DNA of 12,430 nt, taken from a virus. Position numbers and translations under genes: made by a program. The first letter of the stretch is position 1. Every line of letters starts with the position of its first letter. Below are positions 5,259 to 12,430 of the stretch, one piece after another. The notes under the pieces are model-generated. The model was not told the DNA's origin. It saw nothing but the letters and a program-made list of their open reading frames with translations, and did no database searches. The stretch lies in UHGV virus genome UHGV-0392688. One strand, 5' to 3'.

Positions 5259-5906
5259 ATGCATCGTATAGACACGAAAACCGCGCAGAAGGATAAGTTC
5301 GGCGCGGGTAAGAACGGTTTTACCCGTGGTAACCCCCAGACCGGCACACCTGCCACCGATCTGGATGATGACTACTTTGACATGTTGCAGGAGGAGCTTT
5401 GCAGCGTTGTGGAGGCATCCGGTGCCAGCCTGGAGAAGGGGCGGCACGACCAGCTGCTTACCGCGCTTCGTGCGCTGCTGTTAAGCCGCAAGAATCCGTT
5501 TGGTGATATCAAATCGGATGGCACGGTGAAAACGGCTCTCGAAAACCTTGGTTTAGGAGAAGCGGCGAAAAGGGATGTGGGCACAGGAGATAATCAGATA
5601 CCGGATATGGGAGCATTCGCTTCTGGTTCGGGATGGTTCAGGCTACCAGGTGGATATATTGTTCAGTTTGGCACTTTTGCAGGAAACACGACCCGCTTTA
5701 TCAGTGGACACTTCCCTATACCATTCCCTAATCAGCCGATGGTTTCAGTCAGTGTTATGTCTGATGCCGTTCAGTCAGACCCGTCGAATCCTGCCCCGCA
5801 GGTTTTGTCTGTAAATTTTGAACATATCAGTAATTCAGCGTGGCGTGTGGCAACCAGTGATATCTCACAGCAATACAGATTCAGTTATATTTCGATAGGA
5901 CGGTAG
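5259..5906 (+). CDS. Short tail-fibre protein: constant N-terminal part (about residues 1-97) fused to a variable C-terminal part encoded inside the invertible segment
   Basis: 215-aa ORF. A 26-bp Hin/Gin-type crossover site lies inside the coding sequence at 5536-5561 (codons for ...ENLGLGE...). It is followed by a tail-fibre assembly gene. Resembles short e14-type tail fibres by eye. Confidence 0.6.
5536..5561. repeat. Left inversion crossover site (hix/gix/pix-like, 26 bp)
   Basis: CTCTCGAAAACC TT GGTTTAGGAGAA: two 12-bp half-sites around a 2-bp core, matching the AAAACC-NN-GGTTT pattern of Hin-family sites. The inner half-site is an 11/12 inverted repeat of the inner half-site at 7364-7375. 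Confidence 0.65.
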
Positions 5907-5908
5907 AA

Positions 5909-6349
5909 ATGCAGAAATATATTTTCAGTGCCGATAAAAATGCGTTTTTCCCTGTGGAGCTTAAAATCGCTTATCAGGAATCCGGCGAATGGCCCGGTGA
6001 TGGAATCGAAATTGACGACACTGTTGCCGCCGAATTTATGAAGGAAGCACCAGAAGGAAAATACAGAGGTGTCATCGACGGAATGCCTGCATGGATTGAT
6101 ATTCCACCGCCAACTCATGAGGAACAAATTGCCGCAGCCGAACTGGAAAAGCAGCAATTGATTAATCAGGTCAACGAATACATAAACAGTAAGCAATGGC
6201 CTGGTAAAGCGGCGATTGGTCGCCTGAAAGGTGAGGAACTGGCGCAATATAATTTGTGGCTGGATTATCTGGACGCACTGGAACTGGTCGATACTTCTGG
6301 TGCGCCAGATATTGAATGGCCTACGCCTCCGGCAGTTCAGGCCAGATGA
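5909..6349 (+). CDS. Tail fibre assembly protein (Tfa/U-like), partner of the currently expressed fibre variant
   Basis: 146-aa ORF directly after the fibre gene. Its C-terminal motif (TSGAPDIEWPTPP) is echoed in the convergent gene's C-terminus (TSTAPDVIWPELP), as expected for paralogous assembly proteins. Confidence 0.6.
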   Translation: MQKYIFSADKNAFFPVELKIAYQESGEWPGDGIEIDDTVAAEFMKEAPEGKYRGVIDGMPAWIDIPPPTHEEQIAAAELEKQQLINQVNEYINSKQWPGKAAIGRLKGEELAQYNLWLDYLDALELVDTSGAPDIEWPTPPAVQAR

Positions 6350-6923
6350 CATCCGGCGCGGTGCTGGTATCTGTTGCCGCCACCGCGTCAATGTAATCCA
6401 GCACAGCGTTAAGCCGGGTTGTTTCTGCCTGCGTCAGCTTCCGCCCGGCCCGTAATTTCAGCTGAATCAGACTGATGGAAGCCATTGCAGCATCAATCAG
6501 CGACTGGCGCTTTGCTTCTGCCGCTTCTACTGCGGCACTATGTTGTGCCTCGGTATCCGTCACCCATTTCTCACCATCCCATTTATCATATGGCGTTAAC
6601 GGGGCGATAGTGGTTGTATTTTCAGGGTAATCACCCGGAGCTGTGATTTCTTTCGATTCTCCTGTTTCGGTGCTATAGATGATTTCACCGCGATGGTCTG
6701 GCACATATTCCCATGAGTTAAAATCTGCAGAACGGCAGATTGCATAACCAGCTTTATGTGTAACTGGTGCATCTAAACAAGAACATGCCGGTATACCGAC
6801 GCCAACCGCAAGATATTCAGTTGATGTGGAAATATATTCCCGCGTTTCACCATCATAATTATAAATGGTAATGTCTCCCGCTTTTATGGCAATGAGTTCG
6901 TTATTTAATACGGCTTTATTCAT
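6321..6923 (-). CDS. Tail fibre assembly protein (Tfa/U'-like), alternative orientation
   Basis: 200-aa ORF on the minus strand inside the invertible segment. It follows the alternative fibre C-terminal segment with a 1-nt stop/start overlap at 6923, and its 3' end overlaps the + strand assembly gene (6321-6349). Confidence 0.6.
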   Translation of the reverse strand: MNKAVLNNELIAIKAGDITIYNYDGETREYISTSTEYLAVGVGIPACSCLDAPVTHKAGYAICRSADFNSWEYVPDHRGEIIYSTETGESKEITAPGDYPENTTTIAPLTPYDKWDGEKWVTDTEAQHSAAVEAAEAKRQSLIDAAMASISLIQLKLRAGRKLTQAETTRLNAVLDYIDAVAATDTSTAPDVIWPELPEA

Positions 6924-7377
6924 CAGGCTGCCCTCACGATATAGTTAAATGCGACGTTGCGCGGCCGTGTCTCTGCACCAACGCGAGGCTGACCGCCTGC
7001 AAAATTGGTTGATGATACAGGACCAACCAAATCACCATCGCCAGTTCGTGTGTTCCCGCCATCGGGTAGCGCGCCGGAGCCACCGAATGCACCAATGTAC
7101 GATATGCGGATGTTACTGTGCCCGTGGTTTTGCAGCTGGTCTGTCTGTGATGAACCAAGATTTCTTGACGGGTCTACCCCGCGCCCATCATCCCATCCAC
7201 GAATAAATTCACCGCGTAAATCAGGCAATTTATTTGTCGGGTAAGCCTTTGCCAGTTCCGGGTATTCTTCAGCAGAAAAAGCCGCACCATTGCATTTCAA
7301 CCAGCCTGTTGGCGGAGTGGCTGAAGGCCACGGAACAGGCACCCCAACAGGTAATGCTGAGCCTTCTCCCAAACCAA
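6923..7377 (-). CDS. Promoterless alternative tail-fibre C-terminal segment (tail-collar-like), expressed only after inversion fuses it to the constant N-terminus
   Basis: The minus-strand frame is open from the crossover site (...KVGLGEGSALPVG...) with no ATG; the ORF track's start at 7372 is a TTG. It encodes the same LGLGE junction peptide as the left site. The region ...AAFSAEEYPELAKAYPTNKLPDLRGEFIRGWDDGRG... resembles phage tail-collar/fibre C-terminal domains. Confidence 0.55.
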
Positions 7378-7389
7378 CCTTTCAAATAT
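7364..7389. repeat. Right inversion crossover site (inverted copy)
   Basis: TTCTCCCAAACC AA CCTTTCAAATAT; its reverse complement ...TT GGTTTGGGAGAA matches the left site's core and inner half-site at 11/12 positions. Confidence 0.6.
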
Positions 7390-7416
7390 TTTTCTGAATC
7401 AGGTGATATTTCGCCT

Positions 7417-7443
7417 CTTCTCCTGTTTTTACAACAGGAGAAG
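7417..7443 (+). promoter_or_regulatory. Perfect 11-bp stem hairpin enclosing the invertase Shine-Dalgarno
   Basis: CTTCTCCTGTT (7417-7427), loop TTTAC, AACAGGAGAAG (7433-7443). The AGGAG at 7436-7440 is the only plausible RBS for the ATG at 7449. Confidence 0.45.
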
Positions 7444-7448
7444 CACTC

Positions 7449-8012
7449 ATGATTTACGGGTATGTTCGTGTATCAACAAATCATCAGGATACAGAGTTGC
7501 AACGTCTTGCACTTGAGTCAGCTGGCTGTGAGCGAATTTATGAAGAATATGCCAGTGGCAGAACAGCTAATCGCCCTGTGTTAAAGGAATTAATTACGGT
7601 GATGAAAAGTGGAGATGAGTTGATTGTCTGGAAGTTAGATCGGATAGGGAGAAATGTGCTGCATGCGCTATTGATGTTTCAAAATCTGCACGAAAAAGGT
7701 GTTAATTTTCGGAGTATTACAGATGGCGTAGACCTGAAAACAGCAAGTGGTCGCTATAATTTCCGTAATATTCTTTCTGCTGCGCAGTATGAATCTGATT
7801 TGAATAGCGAGCGAACTTTAGCTGGTTTGGCTATTGCCAGATCCAAAGGCCGGATTGGTGGGCGTAGACCGAAGTTTAGCGACGAGCAGTGGCAACAGAT
7901 GGGAGCGCTCATAGCGGCAGGGAAATCACGGCGTTATGTTGCACGTATCTATAACGTTGGGCTATCAACCCTATATAAACGATTTCCTGTTACTGGCATT
8001 CAAACGAAATAA
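7449..8012 (+). CDS. pin: Serine recombinase, DNA invertase (Hin/Gin/Pin family)
   Basis: 187 aa. N-terminal YVRVSTNHQ carries the catalytic serine; GRIGGRRPK and a C-terminal helix-turn-helix (LSTLYKRF) are typical of the family. Sits directly next to the invertible segment. Confidence 0.8.
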   Translation: MIYGYVRVSTNHQDTELQRLALESAGCERIYEEYASGRTANRPVLKELITVMKSGDELIVWKLDRIGRNVLHALLMFQNLHEKGVNFRSITDGVDLKTASGRYNFRNILSAAQYESDLNSERTLAGLAIARSKGRIGGRRPKFSDEQWQQMGALIAAGKSRRYVARIYNVGLSTLYKRFPVTGIQTK

Positions 8013-8052
8013 TTTAAAAGCAATTTAAAGAGTTATTTGTCTAATGTTGGAA

Positions 8053-8088
8053 GCCGCAGCCACGTCGTATGCAAGAACGTGCTGCGGC
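8053..8088. terminator. GC-rich hairpin between convergent invertase and dinI-like genes (terminator or recombination-site candidate)
   Basis: GCCGCAGCCACG ... CGTGCTGCGGC imperfect inverted repeat with a 13-nt loop. There is no clear U-tract on either side, so its role is uncertain. Confidence 0.3.
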
Positions 8089-8155
8089 TGGCTGGCGAAC
8101 TTTCGATAGTGCGAGTATTGAATGATTTCCAGCCGTTACCGATTTTACGTGTTAA

Positions 8156-8404
8156 TTAGTGAACAAACCACTCGTCAGCAGATTCCCAGGTATCTTTCAG
8201 AGTCTCCTGAACAAAAGTTTTTGCAGAATCCTTATCTGCGGTGCGTGTAACAGAAAGGCCATCGTTGCTGGTGGCTTTTACGATCACCTCTACATCGTCA
8301 TAACGTTTACTGATGCGTCGGGTTAATTCTTCCTTTAACGCATCCACAGCACCGGTTGGCATTTTAGTCATTTTTTCTTTGGCTATGCAGATTTCAATAC
8401 GCAT
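8156..8404 (-). CDS. dinI: DinI-family protein (SOS-inducible RecA modulator-like)
   Basis: 82 aa, [11 protein letters not shown]...[11 protein letters not shown], matching the DinI family pattern (MRIE...ETWESAD.WFV). GAGGG RBS 6 nt upstream. Two LexA boxes lie directly upstream. Confidence 0.75.
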
Positions 8405-8417
8405 AAAAGTCCCTCTA

Positions 8418-8437
8418 TACTGTGTTTGTATACAGTA
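8418..8437. promoter_or_regulatory. LexA (SOS) box 1
   Basis: TACTGTGTTTGTATACAGTA, i.e. CTGT-N8-ACAG with flanking TA/TA, close to the consensus TACTGTATATATATACAGTA. It is 14 bp upstream of the dinI-like start codon. Confidence 0.7.
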
Positions 8438-8445
8438 TTATTTTT

Positions 8446-8465
8446 AACTGTATAGATAAACAGTG
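8446..8465. promoter_or_regulatory. LexA (SOS) box 2
   Basis: AACTGTATAGATAAACAGTG, CTGT-N8-ACAG; it abuts the integrase stop codon (8466-8468). Confidence 0.6.
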
Positions 8466-9563
8466 TCAAGAGGCCTTATTTCTGCTCCTTTGGAGCTCTT
8501 CAAAACGATTATGTAAAGATTTCGGATACAGTTCGGTATATACCTGCCATAGCACGTTTAATGAACGATGCCCTGTAACCTGGGCGACTTCCTCAATACT
8601 AAAACCAGCCTCAAATAAGCGACTTGCCCCTTCTCTACGCAAATCATGGTATCGCAGATCTTTAATACCTAATTTGCTTCTTACCCTCTGGAATCCCGCA
8701 GTAACAGAAGTGCTGTTATATGGAAAAATGAATTCTGATTTTTTGGGTTGTCGTTGGACGATATCCCAGGCTTCCCCAAGCAAGGCTACTTTCATATGGT
8801 TGCCTTCCTTTTTACGTGGATCTTTCCTGTCTCTTACGAGTATGGATTTTTGTTCCTGATCGAGATCCTCCCATCGTAATCGGCATACTTCACCGATTCG
8901 CATACATGACCACACAGAAAATTTGAGGATATCAACGAACGGAATTTTTGAGCATTTATGTGTAGATCGTTGTTGAAGACCTTCAATGAGCATGTCCAGT
9001 TCATCAGATGCCGGTCTACGATTACGACGATTTGATTTACCAATTAAACCAAGTTTAAGTAGATATGGACGAGCGGCTTTTGCTGGGTTTGATGTGTAAT
9101 TAATTCCATATACAGGTTTGGCAGCATCCAGAACACTGCCAAGATAACTAACATCGTGGCTAACTGTAGCTGGACCTGCACCAGCGTTGTTTCTTAGCCT
9201 GCAATGTTCAATTACGTCATTTTCTGTCAGTTCAGATAGTTTGAGCGCGGAGACGTCACTATCCATAAGCAGTTCCAGCACATATCTTTTAGTACGGCCT
9301 GCTTTACCTCCGGCATTTGGGTCATTTAAATATTTGTGTAGTAAGTCACGGACTGTAAGTCCGTCAACTGCATTTGATGATGGAATGCCATATAGATCTA
9401 ATTCCATCACTTTCTGTGTGCCCCATGTTTTGGCATGAGCATGTTTAGGGAATGTTTTACTTTCCCTGTAAGTGATAACACCTTTTTCTTTGATAATCAC
9501 ATTACAGCGATAGCGTGGTGTGCCATCGGATTTTAGTCGTTTCTCTATGTTATAGTATGCCAT
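8466..9563 (-). CDS. int: Tyrosine site-specific recombinase (phage integrase)
   Basis: 365 aa. The C-terminal catalytic region has the R...HxxR...H...Y pattern (CMRIGEV..., RYHDLRREG, VTGHRSLNVLWQVYTEL). GAGG RBS 8 nt upstream of the ATG. Confidence 0.8.
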   Translation of the reverse strand: MAYYNIEKRLKSDGTPRYRCNVIIKEKGVITYRESKTFPKHAHAKTWGTQKVMELDLYGIPSSNAVDGLTVRDLLHKYLNDPNAGGKAGRTKRYVLELLMDSDVSALKLSELTENDVIEHCRLRNNAGAGPATVSHDVSYLGSVLDAAKPVYGINYTSNPAKAARPYLLKLGLIGKSNRRNRRPASDELDMLIEGLQQRSTHKCSKIPFVDILKFSVWSCMRIGEVCRLRWEDLDQEQKSILVRDRKDPRKKEGNHMKVALLGEAWDIVQRQPKKSEFIFPYNSTSVTAGFQRVRSKLGIKDLRYHDLRREGASRLFEAGFSIEEVAQVTGHRSLNVLWQVYTELYPKSLHNRFEELQRSRNKAS

Positions 9564-9583
9564 TACACGACCTCGTTATTTCG

Positions 9584-9606
9584 GGTTCCCATAAAACGTG
9601 GGAACC
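9584..9606. promoter_or_regulatory. Perfect palindrome GGTTCCCA-N7-TGGGAACC just upstream of the integrase start (operator or protein-binding site candidate)
   Basis: 8-bp arms with a 7-bp spacer, 21-43 bp upstream of the int ATG. Further GGGAACC copies at 9612-9618 and 9810-9816, with TGGGAACCTGT repeated at 9599-9609 and 9809-9819. Confidence 0.4.
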
Positions 9607-10009
9607 TGTGCGGGAACCTAACGCGAGAAAAATAGCCTGAAATGTTCAAAAATGCACGATAATCATGAAACACAAAAAATTAATCAAACCAGCGTGATGC
9701 CTGAAAAAACTGGTGTTTACTGGAATTCTCGGTTTAGCATTGCTCCTATGCTCGATAGGATGTACCGTTGTTGAAAAACAACTAGTTATACACTTTGTGG
9801 GAGCCTATTGGGAACCTGTTATTCTTAGAAAGCATCATTTGCTCATCACTTCAATTGACCATGATTAAAGCCAGCTATAAACTTGACAAACAAGGTAACT
9901 AGTTGCTTAGGCCTAAGTGGGCACACCATAAGAAGCGCATGTTGGTGATGAAGCAACCTATGAAGAATCAAGAATAATTACAAAGTTCACTATCTTTGAG
10001 GTTTCTTAT

Positions 10010-10582
10010 ATGTTTTGCGAAGAAAAAGTAGCTCAAATGGCTGCATACCTACTTCTTAAGCGAGGTGGGCGCATGGCATATCTGAAATTGATGAAGCTGC
10101 TCTATCTGTCTAACCGCAAGTCGATTTTGAAGCATGGCAGGATGATCGGCGAAGATAGCCTTTACTCTATGAAATTTGGTCCAGTCATGTCGAATACGCT
10201 GAACTTGATTCGTGGTAAGGCTGAAGGCATTGGTGACTACTGGTACAACTTGATAGAGACGAACGGGCATGATGTGTTGTTGCGTTCAGATCCGAGGGAA
10301 ATGGATGCAGACGAGGTCTTTGATGAGTTGAGCCGTGCAGATATCCGGATTTTAGATGAAATCTATTCTCTGTATGGGCATATGAACCGATTTGATCTCG
10401 CAAACATGACGCATTTAGAAAGCGTTTGTCCAGAGTGGCACAATCCTGGCAATTCTCGTAAGCCTATAGACCTGAAAGAAATGCTGATCAGTGAGGGTAA
10501 AAGCGAGGATGAGGCTAATCGTATAATTGGCAAAATGGAAGAATCTCAGAAACTTAAGGAATTTTCTTTGCAATTATCATGA
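10010..10582 (+). CDS. Panacea-domain (DUF4065, SocA/GepA-like) protein, candidate antitoxin or sensor of a two-gene module
   Basis: 190 aa. The N-terminal half (...AAYLLLKRGGRMAYLKLMKLLYLSNRKS...MKFGPV...) matches the DUF4065/Panacea pattern. GAGG RBS 9 nt upstream. Stop overlaps the next ATG (ATGA at 10579-10582). Confidence 0.6.
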   Translation: MFCEEKVAQMAAYLLLKRGGRMAYLKLMKLLYLSNRKSILKHGRMIGEDSLYSMKFGPVMSNTLNLIRGKAEGIGDYWYNLIETNGHDVLLRSDPREMDADEVFDELSRADIRILDEIYSLYGHMNRFDLANMTHLESVCPEWHNPGNSRKPIDLKEMLISEGKSEDEANRIIGKMEESQKLKEFSLQLS

Positions 10583-10995
10583 CGGATTATCAGCCATACA
10601 GGAAAGGAACTGTGCTTGCCCCAACTGGGCCATGCAATCATCTTCATGTGATTTGTAATGATCCTGTTTATTACCCCGTTAACGATTGTTATTGTGTTTT
10701 AGTTGTTAATATTTCTAGTATCAAGGATGGTGTCCCCCACGATCCGTCTTGCGTCTTGAATTCTGGTGATCATCGCTTTATCAAGCATCCAAGTTATGTT
10801 GTTTACGCTGAAGCTATAATTTGGCGAGTGGATAACATGGTTAGAAAGCAGCGATCGGGTGAGATTTCTGTTCATGATGATATGCCAGAAGCTACATTCA
10901 ATAGAATTCTGGACGGTTTTGATATATCTGATGAAGTTACGCCAAAGAACCTTAAATTTAAAAATAAATATTGCGTATCATCTATTGATGATTAG
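10579..10995 (+). CDS. Hypothetical 138-aa protein, candidate toxin/effector partner of the Panacea-domain protein
   Basis: Coupled to the upstream gene by a 4-bp ATGA overlap. AT-rich coding sequence. His/Cys-rich N-terminal half (NHLHVICND..., CYCVLVV, HDPSCVL, DHRFIKH) and acidic C-terminus. I do not recognise any family. Confidence 0.5.
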   Translation: MTDYQPYRKGTVLAPTGPCNHLHVICNDPVYYPVNDCYCVLVVNISSIKDGVPHDPSCVLNSGDHRFIKHPSYVVYAEAIIWRVDNMVRKQRSGEISVHDDMPEATFNRILDGFDISDEVTPKNLKFKNKYCVSSIDD

Positions 10996-11037
10996 TAAAC
11001 AACAGGAATTTTTTCGGTATAGCTTCTGGAGTTTTCT

Positions 11038-11211
11038 ATGGAAGATCAAAAAGCAACCAAGCCACAGGTTAAGTTCGACACAATGAAAGCATTCGCAGGT
11101 ATGGGGGCTGCTGTTGAAGTTCTGATGAAGGCTGTTCCTAATGCGTTCACTCACGCTACTGTCTCTGGTAAAGAGCAGCAGGGTAAGCTTCGTCGTCGCA
11201 AAGCAGCATGA
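11038..11211 (+). CDS. Small 57-aa protein (MEDQKATKPQVKFDTMKAFAGMGAAVEVLMKAVPNAFTHATVSGKEQQGKLRRRKAA), unknown function
   Basis: Not in the ORF track. ATG at 11038 with GGAG at 11028-11031 (6-nt spacer), TGA at 11209-11211, and a strong terminator 20 bp downstream. Same strand as the Panacea pair. Confidence 0.4.
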   Translation: MEDQKATKPQVKFDTMKAFAGMGAAVEVLMKAVPNAFTHATVSGKEQQGKLRRRKAA

Positions 11212-11230
11212 TCATAGCTGGTGCTTTTTG

Positions 11231-11260
11231 AAAACCCGCCTTCAGGCGGGTTTTTTCTTT
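11231..11260. terminator. Bidirectional rho-independent terminator
   Basis: AAAA CCCGCC TTCA GGCGGG TTTTTTCTTT: a 6-bp GC stem with A-run and T-run flanks, between the convergent small ORF (+) and PrtN-like gene (-). Confidence 0.75.
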
Positions 11261-11540
11261 AGTGATGTTCTTTGCCCTTCTGTTTGACTGTTCTGACCTG
11301 TTCCCACTCGATACGTCCTTCTTCTCGCCTTTTGTCTATGTATTCCGCAAGATCCTGAATATTGATGCAACGTTTTGCTTTTTGTGATGTGCCGATGCGA
11401 TATGTTGGAACGGGCAACTTACAAGCGTTTGCTTTTGCTTCTGCCGTGGCTGGACTCATACCAAAGTACTTTTGGCTAACTGCTGAGAGTTCAATGTTTG
11501 GGGTATTGAATTCAGCCATCAGTAAAAACAAGGTGTTCAT
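11259..11540 (-). CDS. PrtN-family small DNA-binding protein (possible excisionase-like or transcriptional activator)
   Basis: The ORF track extends to 11567, but the ATG at 11540 (MNTLFLLMAEF...) has a GGAG RBS 8 nt upstream and gives a 93-aa product. The N-terminus resembles PrtN/pyocin-activator-type proteins by eye. Lies in the leftward operon toward int. Confidence 0.45.
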   Translation of the reverse strand: MNTLFLLMAEFNTPNIELSAVSQKYFGMSPATAEAKANACKLPVPTYRIGTSQKAKRCINIQDLAEYIDKRREEGRIEWEQVRTVKQKGKEHH

Positions 11541-11576
11541 AATTTTCTCCATCAAAACCGGCTGCACCCGGGAAAA

Positions 11577-12149
11577 TCATAATTCTGTGCTGGTGGCAGG
11601 AATTAATTTCTGCCAGATAGCGGAAACATATTTTGCCTGATGACGGGCATCAGCCAGGGCGTTGTGCCGTTCGCCATCGAAAGGCATGTCCATTTTGGGG
11701 TCGAATCCGATGGAACGCCCAAGCGTAACGATCGTGCGTACATCGTGGTCATTCCAGTACGCCCACGGGCAGATTTGTCCTGCTCGCTCGTAAGCTCCAC
11801 GTAAAATTACGTTGTCGAAGGTGGCCCCGTTACCCCAGACTTTTAAATATTTTGTATTGTCTGCATGCTGATTAATGAAATGGCTCAGTTCAGAGAGTGC
11901 ATCGCTGATCGACAAAGTATCATCAATACATATTGCAGCTCGTGCTTCAGAGCTCTGTTTCAACCACCACAGGATGGTATCGCCGTCAGGTGTAGCTCCT
12001 TGCTTCATAGCACTGTCCAAGCTGACAACCGTATAGAATTCTTGTCCGATGTCTCCTGTTTCTAGGGTGAAGAACACCGCGCCAATGGAAACGATCGGCG
12101 CGTCCTTATTTTTCCCCATCGTCTCAAGGTCGATCATTAAGTTGTTCAT
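11577..12149 (-). CDS. DnaQ-like 3'-5' exonuclease (DEDDh family), prophage exonuclease
   Basis: The ATG at 12149 has an AGGAGGT RBS; the track's 12152 start is a GTG. Motifs: IDLETMG (Exo I, D-x-E), GNGATFDNVIL (Exo II) and HNALADARH (Exo III, H-x4-D). Start overlaps the upstream stop by 1 nt (TGATG). Confidence 0.65.
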   Translation of the reverse strand: MNNLMIDLETMGKNKDAPIVSIGAVFFTLETGDIGQEFYTVVSLDSAMKQGATPDGDTILWWLKQSSEARAAICIDDTLSISDALSELSHFINQHADNTKYLKVWGNGATFDNVILRGAYERAGQICPWAYWNDHDVRTIVTLGRSIGFDPKMDMPFDGERHNALADARHQAKYVSAIWQKLIPATSTEL

Positions 12150-12430
12150 CACTTCACCTCCTGCGGCGGTTCCGGTAGCGGCATCCAGTGAGTTGCTTGC
12201 TCAATACCATTACCCGGCTTAATCGTTGCATCTCCGCGCCGAAAGGTGCTTCCGGTATAGCGTGCGGAGCATATTAGCGGTTCAACCAGAGAGCTATCGA
12301 AATTCACCGAAATAAGCACGTTCTGGCCCTTTTCAGGCATTCTATCACTACAGCTTATCCAACTATCCGGAGTTACCGGAGAGTTGCCCGATAGCTGGTT
12401 CAACTTGTAAGTTTGGCTTACAGGTTCGGC
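12149..12430 (-). CDS. DUF551-domain phage protein, 5' end probably outside the window
   Basis: The minus-strand frame is open to the window edge; the track's start at 12403 is a TTG. ...WISCSDRMPEKGQNVL... and the C-terminal HWMPLPEPP match the DUF551 pattern. Confidence 0.5.
   Translation of the reverse strand, partial: AEPVSQTYKLNQLSGNSPVTPDSWISCSDRMPEKGQNVLISVNFDSSLVEPLICSARYTGSTFRRGDATIKPGNGIEQATHWMPLPEPPQEVK

What the first reader, a model, noticed from the sequence alone, without database searches (positions are those of the whole stretch)
11038..11260. Unannotated 57-codon ORF with strong RBS and terminator, downstream of the Panacea pair
Seen in sequence: ATG at 11038 preceded by GGAG with a 6-nt spacer, open to TGA at 11211, then a textbook terminator hairpin. 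It falls below the ORF track's length cut-off. The product has a mildly hydrophobic centre and a basic tail (KLRRRKAA). Inference: either a third component of the cargo module or an independent small phage protein.
Basis: partly seen in the sequence, partly recalled or inferred. Interest (0 to 1): 0.5.

Follow-up and report, generated by a model that had tools for sequence, protein, structure and literature searches.

The report
Real small phage gene, orphaned partner
The 57-codon ORF is a genuine, conserved small phage gene, already listed in databases as a hypothetical protein; it is not part of the neighbouring Panacea toxin-antitoxin pair but the leftover half of a different two-gene cassette whose GNAT acetyltransferase-like half was swapped out in this phage.

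Summary
In detail: SD GGAG (11028-11031), ATG 11038, TGA 11209-11211, strong hairpin plus T-run 11231-11256. The ORF is a real coding gene. All 91 first-round loci keep it intact, dN/dS is 0.06-0.25 at dS 0.4-0.67, and other frames score >1 or carry stops. It is not unannotated: it matches phrog_2741 full length and is a "hypothetical protein" in RefSeq and GenBank records, in about 10% of complete E. coli genomes.

It is not a Panacea component. Distant PanA-toxin pairs lack it, and relatives with other cargo keep it. In every other lineage, across more than ten genera and several genomic contexts, it follows a ~178-aa GNAT-fold gene (phrog_4350). That ~0.93 kb cassette reads GNAT, promoter-like box, 93-330 nt leader, small ORF, terminator. 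136 of 136 GNAT loci have the small ORF, and none has the GNAT gene alone.

In this window the slot 9817-11024 was replaced by promoter + PanA + toxin, leaving SD + ORF + terminator as an orphan last cistron. The terminator also abuts the convergent xis.

Function is inferred only. I favour a disordered, basic, probably ClpXP-labile binder or neutraliser of the GNAT partner (antitoxin-like). Orphan copies show hints of relaxed constraint. Interest is modest.

The parts
11028..11031 (+). Shine-Dalgarno GGAG, 6 nt before the ATG. Homology with GNAT-type relatives begins here, at about 11025.
   Evidence: Sequence. Every homologue has GGAG, GAGG or GGGG at the same distance. The blastn junction lies at 11025.
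11038..11211 (+). Small-protein CDS, 57 aa, family phrog_2741. It carries a conserved FDT..AF.GMGAAVEVLMKAAP core, an E.QGK motif, and a basic tail ending in -AA.
   Evidence: phrog_2741 E = 5.8e-35. Intact in 91/91 loci. dN/dS 0.06-0.25, with the frame control.
11200..11229 (+). Hairpin spanning the stop codon (AAAGCAGC..GCUGGUGCUUU) plus the spacer CATAGCTGGTGCTTTTTG. The spacer is nearly invariant across four genera.
   Evidence: Fold. The spacer is conserved while synonymous sites in the ORF vary. Its function is unknown.
11231..11256 (.). Rho-independent terminator with an A-tract on one side and a T-tract on the other. It also forms a hairpin on the minus strand, 2 nt from the xis stop codon, and marks the right boundary of the cassette remnant.
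   Evidence: Scan. Folds of both strands. Stem conserved and loop variable in other genera. Homology to other contexts ends just after the T-run.
9817..11024 (+). Context: the swapped cargo slot. It holds a promoter-like site (9855-9883), the Panacea-domain ORF (10010-10582) and its 138-aa partner (10579-10995). Relatives have the GNAT-like gene and the small ORF's own promoter and leader here instead.
   Evidence: promoter-like TTGACC-17-TAAACT. (PF13274, E = 1.8e-18). (mEp460 matches the window only at 8051-9816 and 11025-12388)..
11259..11567 (-). Context: PrtN-type excisionase, convergent with the small ORF.
   Evidence: PF11112 E = 4e-23. phrog_1300, excisionase. Annotations.
9652..9816 (+). 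Context: attP region of a dusA-targeting phage. It encodes a surrogate DusA N-terminus (..RFSIAPMLD..), with the prophage junction near 9739. In a lysogen the small ORF is therefore the third gene in from attL.

Best explanation
The ORF is a genuine, translated small-protein gene of family phrog_2741. It belongs to a compact mobile cassette of about 0.93 kb found in temperate phages and chromosomes of Enterobacterales. The cassette reads: GNAT-fold gene (phrog_4350, ~178 aa), sigma70-like promoter box directly after its stop codon, a 93-330 nt leader, the 53-61 aa basic protein, and an intrinsic terminator.

In this phage, a dusA-integrating mEp460-like phage, a cargo exchange replaced the GNAT gene and the small gene's promoter and leader (slot 9817-11024). 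The replacement is a self-contained promoter + PanA-antitoxin + toxin module. Only SD + small ORF + terminator (about 11025-11256) survived. The orphan is now most likely made as the last cistron of the Panacea operon. Its terminator closes that operon and shields the convergent xis.

Mechanism, inferred and not shown: the protein is largely disordered with one short amphipathic helix. It has a basic C-terminus ending in RRRKAA, which resembles ClpX C-terminal degrons. I propose it is a short-lived binding partner that neutralises or restrains the GNAT enzyme, as an antitoxin would, in a toxin-first arrangement with its own promoter. In this window it has no cognate partner. It is then either a relic under relaxing constraint or a stand-alone 'immunity' against related GNAT cassettes.

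My rough confidence in each step:
- real coding gene, about 0.95
- orphaned half of the GNAT cassette and not a Panacea component, about 0.9
- acts through the GNAT partner, about 0.65
- specifically an antitoxin-like labile neutraliser, about 0.4
For: Coding:
- The ORF is intact in 91/91 loci.
- dN/dS is 0.06-0.25 at dS 0.37-0.67.
- Only frame +1 is both stop-free and constrained.
- The SD is conserved.

Cassette:
- The GNAT-like ORF, leader and small ORF are aligned across mEp460 and five other-genus loci.
- Edwardsiella, Photorhabdus and Serratia GNAT-like genes are each followed by a 56-58 aa homologue, 55-65% identical.
- 136/136 loci with the GNAT-like gene have the small ORF on the same strand, and none has the GNAT gene alone. 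The 41 small-only loci are all Panacea-type E. coli.
- The most divergent relatives (53-61 aa) are also preceded by GNAT-like homologues, E 1e-31 to 1e-73.
- Cassette boundaries run from the GNAT start to the terminator end.
- Contexts differ: Q antiterminator to cassette to lysis genes, inside tail genes, chromosomal, and the attL end of dusA prophages.

GNAT fold:
- The AF2 model has pLDDT 83 and pTM 0.82.

Own promoter:
- TAGACG-N16-18-TA[GC]GAT lies right after the GNAT stop in 8 loci.
- The scan finds TGGACA-16-TAGAAT (10/12) and TTGATT-16-CATAAT in divergent cassettes.

Swap in the window:
- mEp460 matches the window only at 8051-9816 and 11025-12388.
- 205 E. coli genomes carry the Panacea type and about 357 the other type.

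Partner-binding and labile character:
- The AF2 model of the small protein has pLDDT 61 with a single helix at residues 23-32.
- Almost every family member ends in a basic run followed by [AV]A. Compare the ssrA ..ALAA (C-motif-1) and MuA ..NRRKKAI (C-motif-2) degrons (PMC12723719).

Asymmetry and relaxation:
- Only the small gene is ever found alone.
- Orphan copies show 3 synonymous to 6 nonsynonymous variants, and five of the six nonsynonymous ones hit conserved residues, including the window's A33V. GNAT-linked copies show 9 synonymous to 3 nonsynonymous. Fisher p = 0.087.

A TA module (PanAT) replaced the GNAT half, which looks like a like-for-like exchange of cargo.
Against: - Nothing here shows translation, toxicity, binding or degradation.
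- The small protein has no RHH, DUF1778 or any other Pfam or NCBIfam domain, no PDB relative and no PADLOC hit.
- The gene order and the long spacer are unlike the canonical GNAT-RHH TA systems.
- By eye, the acetyl-CoA motif A (R/Q-x-x-G-x-G/A) is degenerate in the family consensus (HPLKGRM).
- The degron resemblance is judged by eye.
- The relaxed-constraint signal is not significant (p = 0.087). No orphan copy is broken, so the orphan could still be functional on its own.
- The perfect linkage partly reflects shared descent. Only about 25 distinct alleles and a dozen or so independent contexts are sampled.
Confidence: 0.45

Rival explanations
1. The small protein is the substrate, or a specificity or targeting subunit, of the GNAT enzyme rather than its inhibitor. 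It might be acetylated at its N-terminus or lysines, or it might direct the enzyme to a host target. Orphaned in this window, it would be inert.
Confidence: 0.2
2. The small protein is an independent moron effector acting on a host or competing-phage target. It would be merely co-inherited with the GNAT gene, and in this window it still works on its own.
For: The gene has its own promoter-like element, SD and terminator in the ancestral cassette. It is retained intact in all 41 orphan loci and appears as an annotated CDS in the sampled rows of 205 E. coli genomes. The cargo swap preserved its SD exactly.
Against: Never once in 136 loci is the GNAT gene seen without it, and outside one recent E. 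coli lineage it is never seen without the GNAT gene. Orphan copies accumulate substitutions at otherwise conserved residues. The Panacea lineage is young (97-99% identical), so intactness says little.
Confidence: 0.15
3. The window copy is a functionless relic. What selection keeps here is the DNA around it, namely the strong terminator. That terminator ends the cargo operon and insulates the convergent xis and the prophage end, and it serves as a conserved flank for cargo exchange.
For: The terminator lies 2 nt from the xis stop and folds on both strands. Both cargo types share this flank. Orphans give pN/pS of about 0.59 against about 0.10 in linked copies (ratios computed from those counts with the site numbers). 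The window allele carries A33V at a position at least 90% conserved.
Against: There are no frameshifts or stops in any orphan copy. The swap junction retained the SD. The difference in constraint is not significant (p = 0.087). This reading overlaps with the best explanation instead of excluding it.
Confidence: 0.25
4. The ORF is a third component of the Panacea (PanA-toxin) module, for example a regulator or second antitoxin.
For: It sits 42 nt downstream of the toxin gene on the same strand with no terminator between them. In E. coli, this particular Panacea pair is always found with it at 85% nucleotide identity or more.
Against: That co-occurrence reflects a single recombinant lineage. Homologous PanA+toxin pairs in Yersinia, Klebsiella and Pseudomonas phages lack any relative of it. 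The ORF predates the pair at this locus and is conserved with a different partner across many genera. It has no Panacea domain.
Confidence: 0.03
5. The region acts mainly as RNA. It would be a 3'-end-derived small RNA, or a structured element built from the stop-spanning hairpin, the U-rich spacer and the terminator, with the ORF incidental.
For: The stop-to-terminator spacer is nearly invariant across four genera while synonymous sites in the ORF vary. The layout of two hairpins with a U-rich linker resembles Hfq-type sRNA 3' ends (the comparison is my own knowledge).
Against: There is strong frame-specific purifying selection on the protein. The protein is conserved in Edwardsiella, Serratia and Photorhabdus, where the 3' spacer is not. 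No Rfam family matches. At most this is a dual function.
Confidence: 0.05

Closest known systems
GNAT-RHH type II toxin-antitoxin systems (TacAT, AtaRT, KacAT, ItaRT)
   Same: A two-gene mobile module in which one gene encodes a ~175-aa GNAT-fold protein. AtaT, TacT3 and KacT are among the top structural matches of the partner. The other gene encodes a small, partly disordered protein. In the solved complexes among the Foldseek matches, a short C-terminal antitoxin segment is bound to the toxin (entry titles 6gtq and 7ak9). Both kinds of module sit in prophage and moron positions.
   Different: The small gene lies downstream, not upstream. It is separated by a 93-330 nt leader and has its own promoter-like site. 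It has no RHH/DUF1778 domain and no sequence similarity to known antitoxins. The GNAT family is a separate PHROG (4350) with no Pfam hit. Toxicity is untested. In the window itself the GNAT half is absent.
Toxin-first TA loci with a separately transcribed antitoxin (mqsRA, higBA, hicAB; from my own knowledge)
   Same: The gene order puts the enzyme or toxin first and the small neutraliser second. An extra promoter drives the second gene alone.
   Different: Those antitoxins carry HTH DNA-binding domains and overlap or abut the toxin gene. Here there is a long structured spacer and no DNA-binding domain.
PanAT (Panacea-domain antitoxin + toxin) modules
   Same: This is the immediate upstream neighbour in the window, probably on the same transcript. 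It occupies the same cargo slot as the GNAT gene in relatives.
   Different: The small ORF has no Panacea domain, is absent from homologous PanAT pairs elsewhere, and is older at this locus than the pair.
ClpXP substrates with C-terminal degrons (ssrA tag, C-motif-1; MuA, C-motif-2)
   Same: A C-terminal basic run followed by small aliphatic residues at the very end. RRRKAA, RSRKAVA and RRARKVAA compare with ..ALAA and ..RRKKAI.
   Different: This is only a resemblance by eye. No degradation data exist, and the basic tail could equally bind nucleic acid or an acidic surface.
Phage morons (autonomous promoter-gene-terminator units in lambdoid phages)
   Same: A discrete unit with its own promoter-like site and a strong terminator. 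It is inserted at classic moron sites: Q to lysis genes, the prophage end next to att, and within tail genes.
   Different: 'Moron' describes an architecture, not a function.

Membership tests
phrog_2741 (uncharacterised small phage protein family) | Full-length significant match to the family HMM | tested here: met
   E = 5.8e-35, residues 1-57 on profile positions 1-57 of 57.
PanAT module (as a third component) | Co-occurrence with homologous PanA+toxin pairs in other genomes | tested here: not met
   The YeP1, Klebsiella phi12.5 and Sirocco pairs have no small-ORF relative within 1.5 kb. All HMM E-values exceed 2.
PanAT module (as a third component) | Panacea (PF13274) domain, or a family shared with known PanAT toxins | tested here: not met
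   No Pfam, NCBIfam or PADLOC hit for the 57-aa protein.
GNAT-RHH type II TA (TacAT/AtaRT/KacAT), as the antitoxin | Adjacent GNAT-fold toxin gene | tested here: not met
   There is no GNAT gene in the window, because the slot holds the Panacea pair. In all other lineages the feature is met: a GNAT-fold partner lies immediately upstream.
GNAT-RHH type II TA (TacAT/AtaRT/KacAT), as the antitoxin | RHH / DUF1778 DNA-binding antitoxin domain | tested here: not met
   No Pfam family at E <= 0.1. No PDB sequence relative at E <= 10.
GNAT-RHH type II TA (TacAT/AtaRT/KacAT), as the antitoxin | Antitoxin gene upstream of, and overlapping or abutting, the toxin gene in one operon | tested here: not met
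   The small gene is downstream, 93-330 nt away, with a promoter-like site in between.
GNAT-RHH type II TA (TacAT/AtaRT/KacAT), as the antitoxin | Toxicity of the GNAT and its neutralisation by the small protein | not testable with these tools
   This needs expression assays. No multimer structure prediction was available.
ClpXP C-terminal degron substrates | C-terminal sequence of the ssrA (..LAA) or MuA (..RRKKAI) type | tested here: inconclusive
   Nearly all aligned family members end in a basic run followed by [AV]A. The comparison with the degrons quoted in PMC12723719 is by eye only.
ClpXP C-terminal degron substrates | ClpXP-dependent turnover | not testable with these tools
   This needs half-life measurements in wild-type and clpX/clpP backgrounds.
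Type I toxins / small hydrophobic membrane peptides | A transmembrane-length hydrophobic helix | tested here: not met
   The highest 15-residue Kyte-Doolittle mean is 1.47, with E27 and K31 inside the core. GRAVY is -0.5 and pI 10.2.
Intrinsic (rho-independent) terminator | G+C-rich hairpin followed by a T-run, conserved in relatives | tested here: met
   11 pairs, 6 of them G-C, then TTTTTT. Fold energy -24.2 kcal/mol, z = -3.4. The stem is conserved and the loop variable across genera.
Any Rfam RNA family | Covariance-model match at or near the gathering score | tested here: not met
   Nothing in the window at gathering threshold. For the homologous region of L006, only weak terminator-driven hits appear at E <= 5.

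The most novel reading that the evidence does not exclude
The GNAT-like gene (phrog_4350) plus the 57-aa protein (phrog_2741) form an undescribed toxin-first GNAT toxin-antitoxin or abortive-infection module. Its antitoxin would be a domain-less, ClpXP-labile 6-kDa protein made from its own promoter behind a structured leader. Orphan antitoxin copies such as this window's, present in about 4% of complete E. coli genomes, would be kept as 'anti-addiction' immunity. They would protect the lysogen against GNAT cassettes brought in by related phages.
Probability: 0.2. Interest if true: 0.55.

Novelty: new variant of a known kind. Interest (0 to 1): 0.3.

Why it matters
For this window, the result closes the question raised. 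The ORF is a real gene, it is already catalogued, and it should not be counted as part of the Panacea defence or TA module.

The wider point is modest. A previously uncharacterised two-gene cassette, GNAT-fold enzyme plus a tiny basic protein, is spread across Enterobacterales phages at classic moron sites. It behaves genetically like a toxin-antitoxin pair, because only the small gene survives alone.

If that is confirmed, it would add a non-canonical antitoxin type to the GNAT toxin family. It would also give an example of defence-cargo exchange that leaves an orphan antitoxin behind.

The locus also documents a precise cargo-swap slot (9817-11024) at the attL end of dusA-integrating prophages. 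About 10% of complete E. coli genomes carry one of the two slot variants (the slot's constant small ORF is found in 562 of 5426).

Tried and rejected
- **Family libraries.** Pfam, NCBIfam and PADLOC scans of the small protein gave no hits.
- **Solved structures.** A PDB profile search with alignment A1 found nothing at E <= 10.
- **Structure of the small protein.** The AF2 model has pLDDT 61 with a single helix. I judged it too poor for a fold search, so none was run.
- **Remote homology.** A profile search of 1.84 billion representatives found only 14 proteins. All are short except one spurious 939-aa hit, and none links to a named family.
- **RNA families.** The Rfam gathering scan of the window and four loci, and a permissive scan of the L006 cassette, gave no relevant family.
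- **Leader structure.** RNAalifold on the GNAT-to-small-ORF leader gave -8.3 kcal/mol with a positive covariation term. The hairpins are visible, but eight sequences do not prove a structure.
- **Literature.** Searches by accession number, by peptide string and by topic found nothing on this protein or cassette.
- **Link to excision control.** I considered this because of the constant adjacency to xis in E. coli and rejected it. In other genera the cassette sits between Q and the lysis genes, inside tail genes, or in the chromosome, with no xis nearby.
- **Transmembrane or type I toxin reading.** Rejected on hydropathy.
- **Antisense ORF 10978-11154 (-).** Rejected. None of the three minus-strand frames over the ORF is both stop-free and constrained (3, 11 and 19 stops in 7 sequences; dN/dS 1.11, 0.25 and 1.27).
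- **GNAT-like sequence search.** The PDB sequence and profile searches gave only spurious coiled-coil hits. The fold search was needed to show the GNAT fold.
Full report
**1. What is in the sequence**

- GGAG lies at 11028-11031, followed by a 6-nt spacer.
- ATG is at 11038 and TGA at 11209-11211, giving 57 codons.
- The hairpin AAAACCCGCC/TTCA/GGCGGGTTTT and its T-run occupy 11231-11256.
- The 3' region folds at -24.2 kcal/mol, z = -3.4. The same hairpin forms on the minus strand.
- The product is 6.2 kDa, pI 10.2, GRAVY -0.5. It has a mildly hydrophobic centre that is not of transmembrane grade, and the tail KLRRRKAA.

An ORF of this length is unremarkable by itself. The window has 106 ORFs of at least 40 aa, and terminator-like sites are not enriched (4 against 2.7 expected). 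The case for a gene therefore has to rest on comparison with relatives.

**2. Where the window comes from**

The window is a temperate E. coli phage of the mEp460 / Lys8385Vzw / SKA5 type. In order it carries:
- Mu-like baseplate and tail-fibre genes
- an invertible fibre segment with a serine invertase
- DinI
- a tyrosine integrase (8466-9563, minus strand)
- the cargo
- a PrtN-type excisionase (11259-11567, minus strand)
- an Rv2179c-like exonuclease and a DUF551 protein

In lysogens the chromosome reads zur, then a 5' fragment of dusA (a 105-nt stub is annotated in the O157:H7 record), then the cargo, small ORF and xis. The window ORF 9652-9774 encodes a surrogate DusA N-terminus (..RFSIAPMLD..), and homology to the APEC 102026 prophage starts at 9739. 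So attP lies at about 9650-9816. The window is the phage (circular) form, and in a lysogen the small ORF is the third gene in from attL.

**3. The ORF is a real, already catalogued gene**

It is annotated as a hypothetical protein in Lys8385Vzw, mEp460 (gp24) and RefSeq E. coli genomes. It is a full-length match to phrog_2741, function unknown.

The 267-bp unit is present in 562 of 5426 complete E. coli genomes. Forty-six 90%-identity protein clusters exist in Escherichia, Salmonella, Enterobacter, Atlantibacter, Cronobacter and Franconibacter.

All 91 loci from the first round of searches (public phage and E. coli records, one genome per species, IMG/VR) keep the ATG and the 174-nt length. 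Against five other-genus homologues:
- dS is 0.37-0.61 and dN/dS is 0.13-0.21. Over all pairs dN/dS is 0.06-0.25.
- Variable columns by codon position number 11, 11 and 28.
- Of the six frames only +1 is both constrained (0.16) and free of stops. The -2 frame scores 0.25 because it shares wobble positions, but it carries 11 stops.

**4. It is not a Panacea component**

mEp460 and about 357 E. coli genomes, including O157:H7 and O111, share the window's sequence up to 9816 and again from 11025. That is 3 nt before the SD. In between they hold different cargo. So the slot 9817-11024 is exchangeable. The window's version is a promoter-like site at 9855-9883, the PF13274 Panacea ORF, and a 138-aa partner. 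It occurs in 205 genomes.

Homologues of the 138-aa partner in Yersinia phage YeP1, Klebsiella phage ST13-OXA48phi12.5 and Pseudomonas phage Sirocco sit directly after a PanA-like gene in YeP1 and the Klebsiella phage (in Sirocco an upstream ORF of matching size and position was not typed). In the first two a convergent gene follows within 17-37 nt. There is no relative of the small ORF in any frame.

**5. What it really belongs to**

In every non-window lineage the small ORF is preceded, on the same strand, by a conserved ~178-aa ORF. This is mEp460 gp23, family phrog_4350, with no Pfam hit.

That family is wider, reaching Edwardsiella, Serratia, Photorhabdus, Brenneria, Plesiomonas, Citrobacter and others. 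In each case examined it is followed 93-197 nt downstream by a 56-58 aa homologue of the window protein, 55-65% identical.

A scan of IMG/VR with the gp23 profile, pooled with the earlier loci, gave three results:
- 136 of 136 loci with the gp23-like gene also have the small ORF.
- No locus has the gp23-like gene alone.
- All 41 small-only loci are the E. coli Panacea type.

Even the most remote relatives found by an exhaustive profile search (53-61 aa; only 14 representatives at 50% clustering) are preceded by gp23-like homologues, E 1e-31 to 1e-73.

Pairwise blastn between a chromosomal copy and a phage copy delimits the unit as gp23 start to terminator end, about 0.93 kb. The unit appears in four kinds of place:
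- between the Q antiterminator and the lysis genes
- inside a tail cluster
- among chromosomal genes next to a tRNA
- at the attL end of dusA prophages

A promoter-like box sits immediately after the GNAT stop codon. It reads TAGACG-N16-18-TA[GC]GAT in eight loci. In divergent cassettes it reads TGGACA-16-TAGAAT (10/12) and TTGATT-16-CATAAT. A hairpin-rich leader follows, then the SD. The small gene therefore looks separately transcribed in the ancestral cassette. The window has lost that promoter and leader.

**6. How it most likely works**

*Shown:* it is a constrained coding gene. It is the obligate downstream partner of a GNAT-fold gene everywhere except in one recent E. coli lineage. In this window the partner has been replaced. 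Its terminator abuts the convergent xis.

*Inferred:*
- The protein is mostly disordered, with one helix at residues 23-32 in a low-confidence model.
- The family keeps an F-D-T..AF..MGAAVEVLMKAAP core, an E.QGK motif, and a basic tail that almost always ends in [AV]A.
- That tail resembles the two C-terminal ClpX degron classes, ssrA ..ALAA and MuA ..NRRKKAI (PMC12723719).

Five features fit a toxin-first toxin-antitoxin logic. The partner is small, disordered and probably labile. It has its own promoter. Its neighbour is a GNAT enzyme. The module is compact and promiscuously mobile. Only the small gene ever occurs alone. In that logic the small protein restrains the GNAT. The replacement of the GNAT half by another TA pair (PanAT) also fits, as a like-for-like cargo exchange.

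Orphan copies hint at relaxed constraint. They show 3 synonymous to 6 nonsynonymous variants, five of the six at conserved residues, including the window's A33V. GNAT-linked E. coli copies show 9 to 3, all at variable positions. Fisher p = 0.087, which is not significant.

I put the antitoxin-like reading at about 0.4. A substrate or specificity-subunit reading gets about 0.2, favoured by the N-acetyltransferase top hits. An independent effector gets about 0.15.

**7. Comparison with known systems**

The closest known systems are the GNAT-RHH TA pairs (TacAT, AtaRT, KacAT). Membership fails on three defining features that I tested:
- no RHH/DUF1778 domain
- reversed gene order with a long spacer
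- no GNAT neighbour in the window itself

Toxicity could not be tested. The cassette may work like such a system, but it is not a member of that family. It is also neither a PanAT component, a type I toxin, nor an Rfam RNA (see the membership table).

**8. Verdict**

The 'unannotated' label and the 'third component' idea are not. The gene is an ordinary, already catalogued small phage gene of unknown function.

The added value of this analysis has three parts:
- the identification of its true partner
- the definition of the cargo-swap junctions (9817 and 11024/11025)
- a testable antitoxin-like hypothesis for an undescribed GNAT plus small-protein cassette

Interest is modest (0.3). The cassette would be a new variant of a known kind if the TA reading holds.

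Noticed in passing
window 9652-9816: This is the attP region of a dusA-targeting phage. ORF 9652-9774 encodes a surrogate DusA N-terminus (..RFSIAPMLD..), and the prophage junction is near 9739. The integrase (8466-9563) and excisionase (11259-11567) flank attP, so in the lysogen they lie at opposite ends of the prophage. The host dusA promoter and 5' stub point into the cargo and the small ORF.
   Followed up: partly
window 9817-11024: A discrete exchangeable cargo slot. 205 of 5426 complete E. coli genomes carry promoter + PanA + toxin here. About 357 carry the small-ORF unit without this cargo; in every such locus I inspected the slot holds the GNAT-like gene and leader. The junctions are identical, the right one 3 nt before the small ORF's SD. 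One genome (AR_0089) has an IS903B insertion in the cargo.
   Followed up: partly
L002 3838-4033; L006 5845-6000; L007, L010, L095, L180-L182 equivalents (not in the window): The 93-330 nt spacer between the GNAT-like gene and the small ORF carries a conserved promoter-like box directly after the GNAT stop. It also has several conserved hairpins, for example CCAATCG..CGATTGG, AAGGTTAGC..GCTACCTT, and GAGAC..GTCTC abutting the SD. No Rfam family matches, and covariation support from eight sequences is weak.
   Followed up: partly
window 11200-11229: A hairpin spans the stop codon, followed by the spacer CATAGCTGGTGCTTTTTG. The spacer is nearly invariant in Escherichia, Enterobacter, Pseudescherichia and Franconibacter, although synonymous sites inside the ORF vary. 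It is not conserved in Edwardsiella, Serratia or Photorhabdus. Its purpose is unknown; it could affect mRNA stability or be a 3'-derived RNA.
   Followed up: partly
window 11041-11043 (codon 2): All orphan (Panacea-type) copies begin MED.., while all GNAT-linked copies begin MK... This K2E change marks the orphan lineage. The window allele additionally carries A33V at a position at least 90% conserved.
   Followed up: partly
window 5259-8012: An invertible tail-fibre region. A fibre C-terminus (5259-5906) and a tail-fibre assembly gene (5909-6349) lie on the + strand. An alternative collar-domain fibre end (6923-7372) and assembly gene (6321-6923) lie on the - strand. A serine invertase follows at 7449-8012. 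Only weak inverted repeats were detected (5906-5927 / 6827-6848).
   Followed up: no
window 8156-8404 (-): A DinI-family gene sits between the invertase and the integrase, as in mEp460 and Lys8385Vzw. It is a typical moron at the other prophage end.
   Followed up: no
L182/L183 (NCBI assemblies GCA_031169815.1 and GCA_052593835.1) 1-2668: A divergent GNAT + small-ORF cassette again sits at a dusA-integrated element. Here it is on the integrase side: Dus (-), integrase (+), GNAT-like, small ORF. Its terminator stem (AAAACCCGCC..GGCGGGTTTT) is identical to the window's, although the proteins belong to different 50%-identity clusters (profile E 2.6e-06).
   Followed up: no
E. coli complete genomes: Four of the 567 places carrying the small-ORF unit are on plasmids rather than chromosomes. 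These may be phage-plasmids or a transfer of the cargo. I did not inspect them.
   Followed up: no
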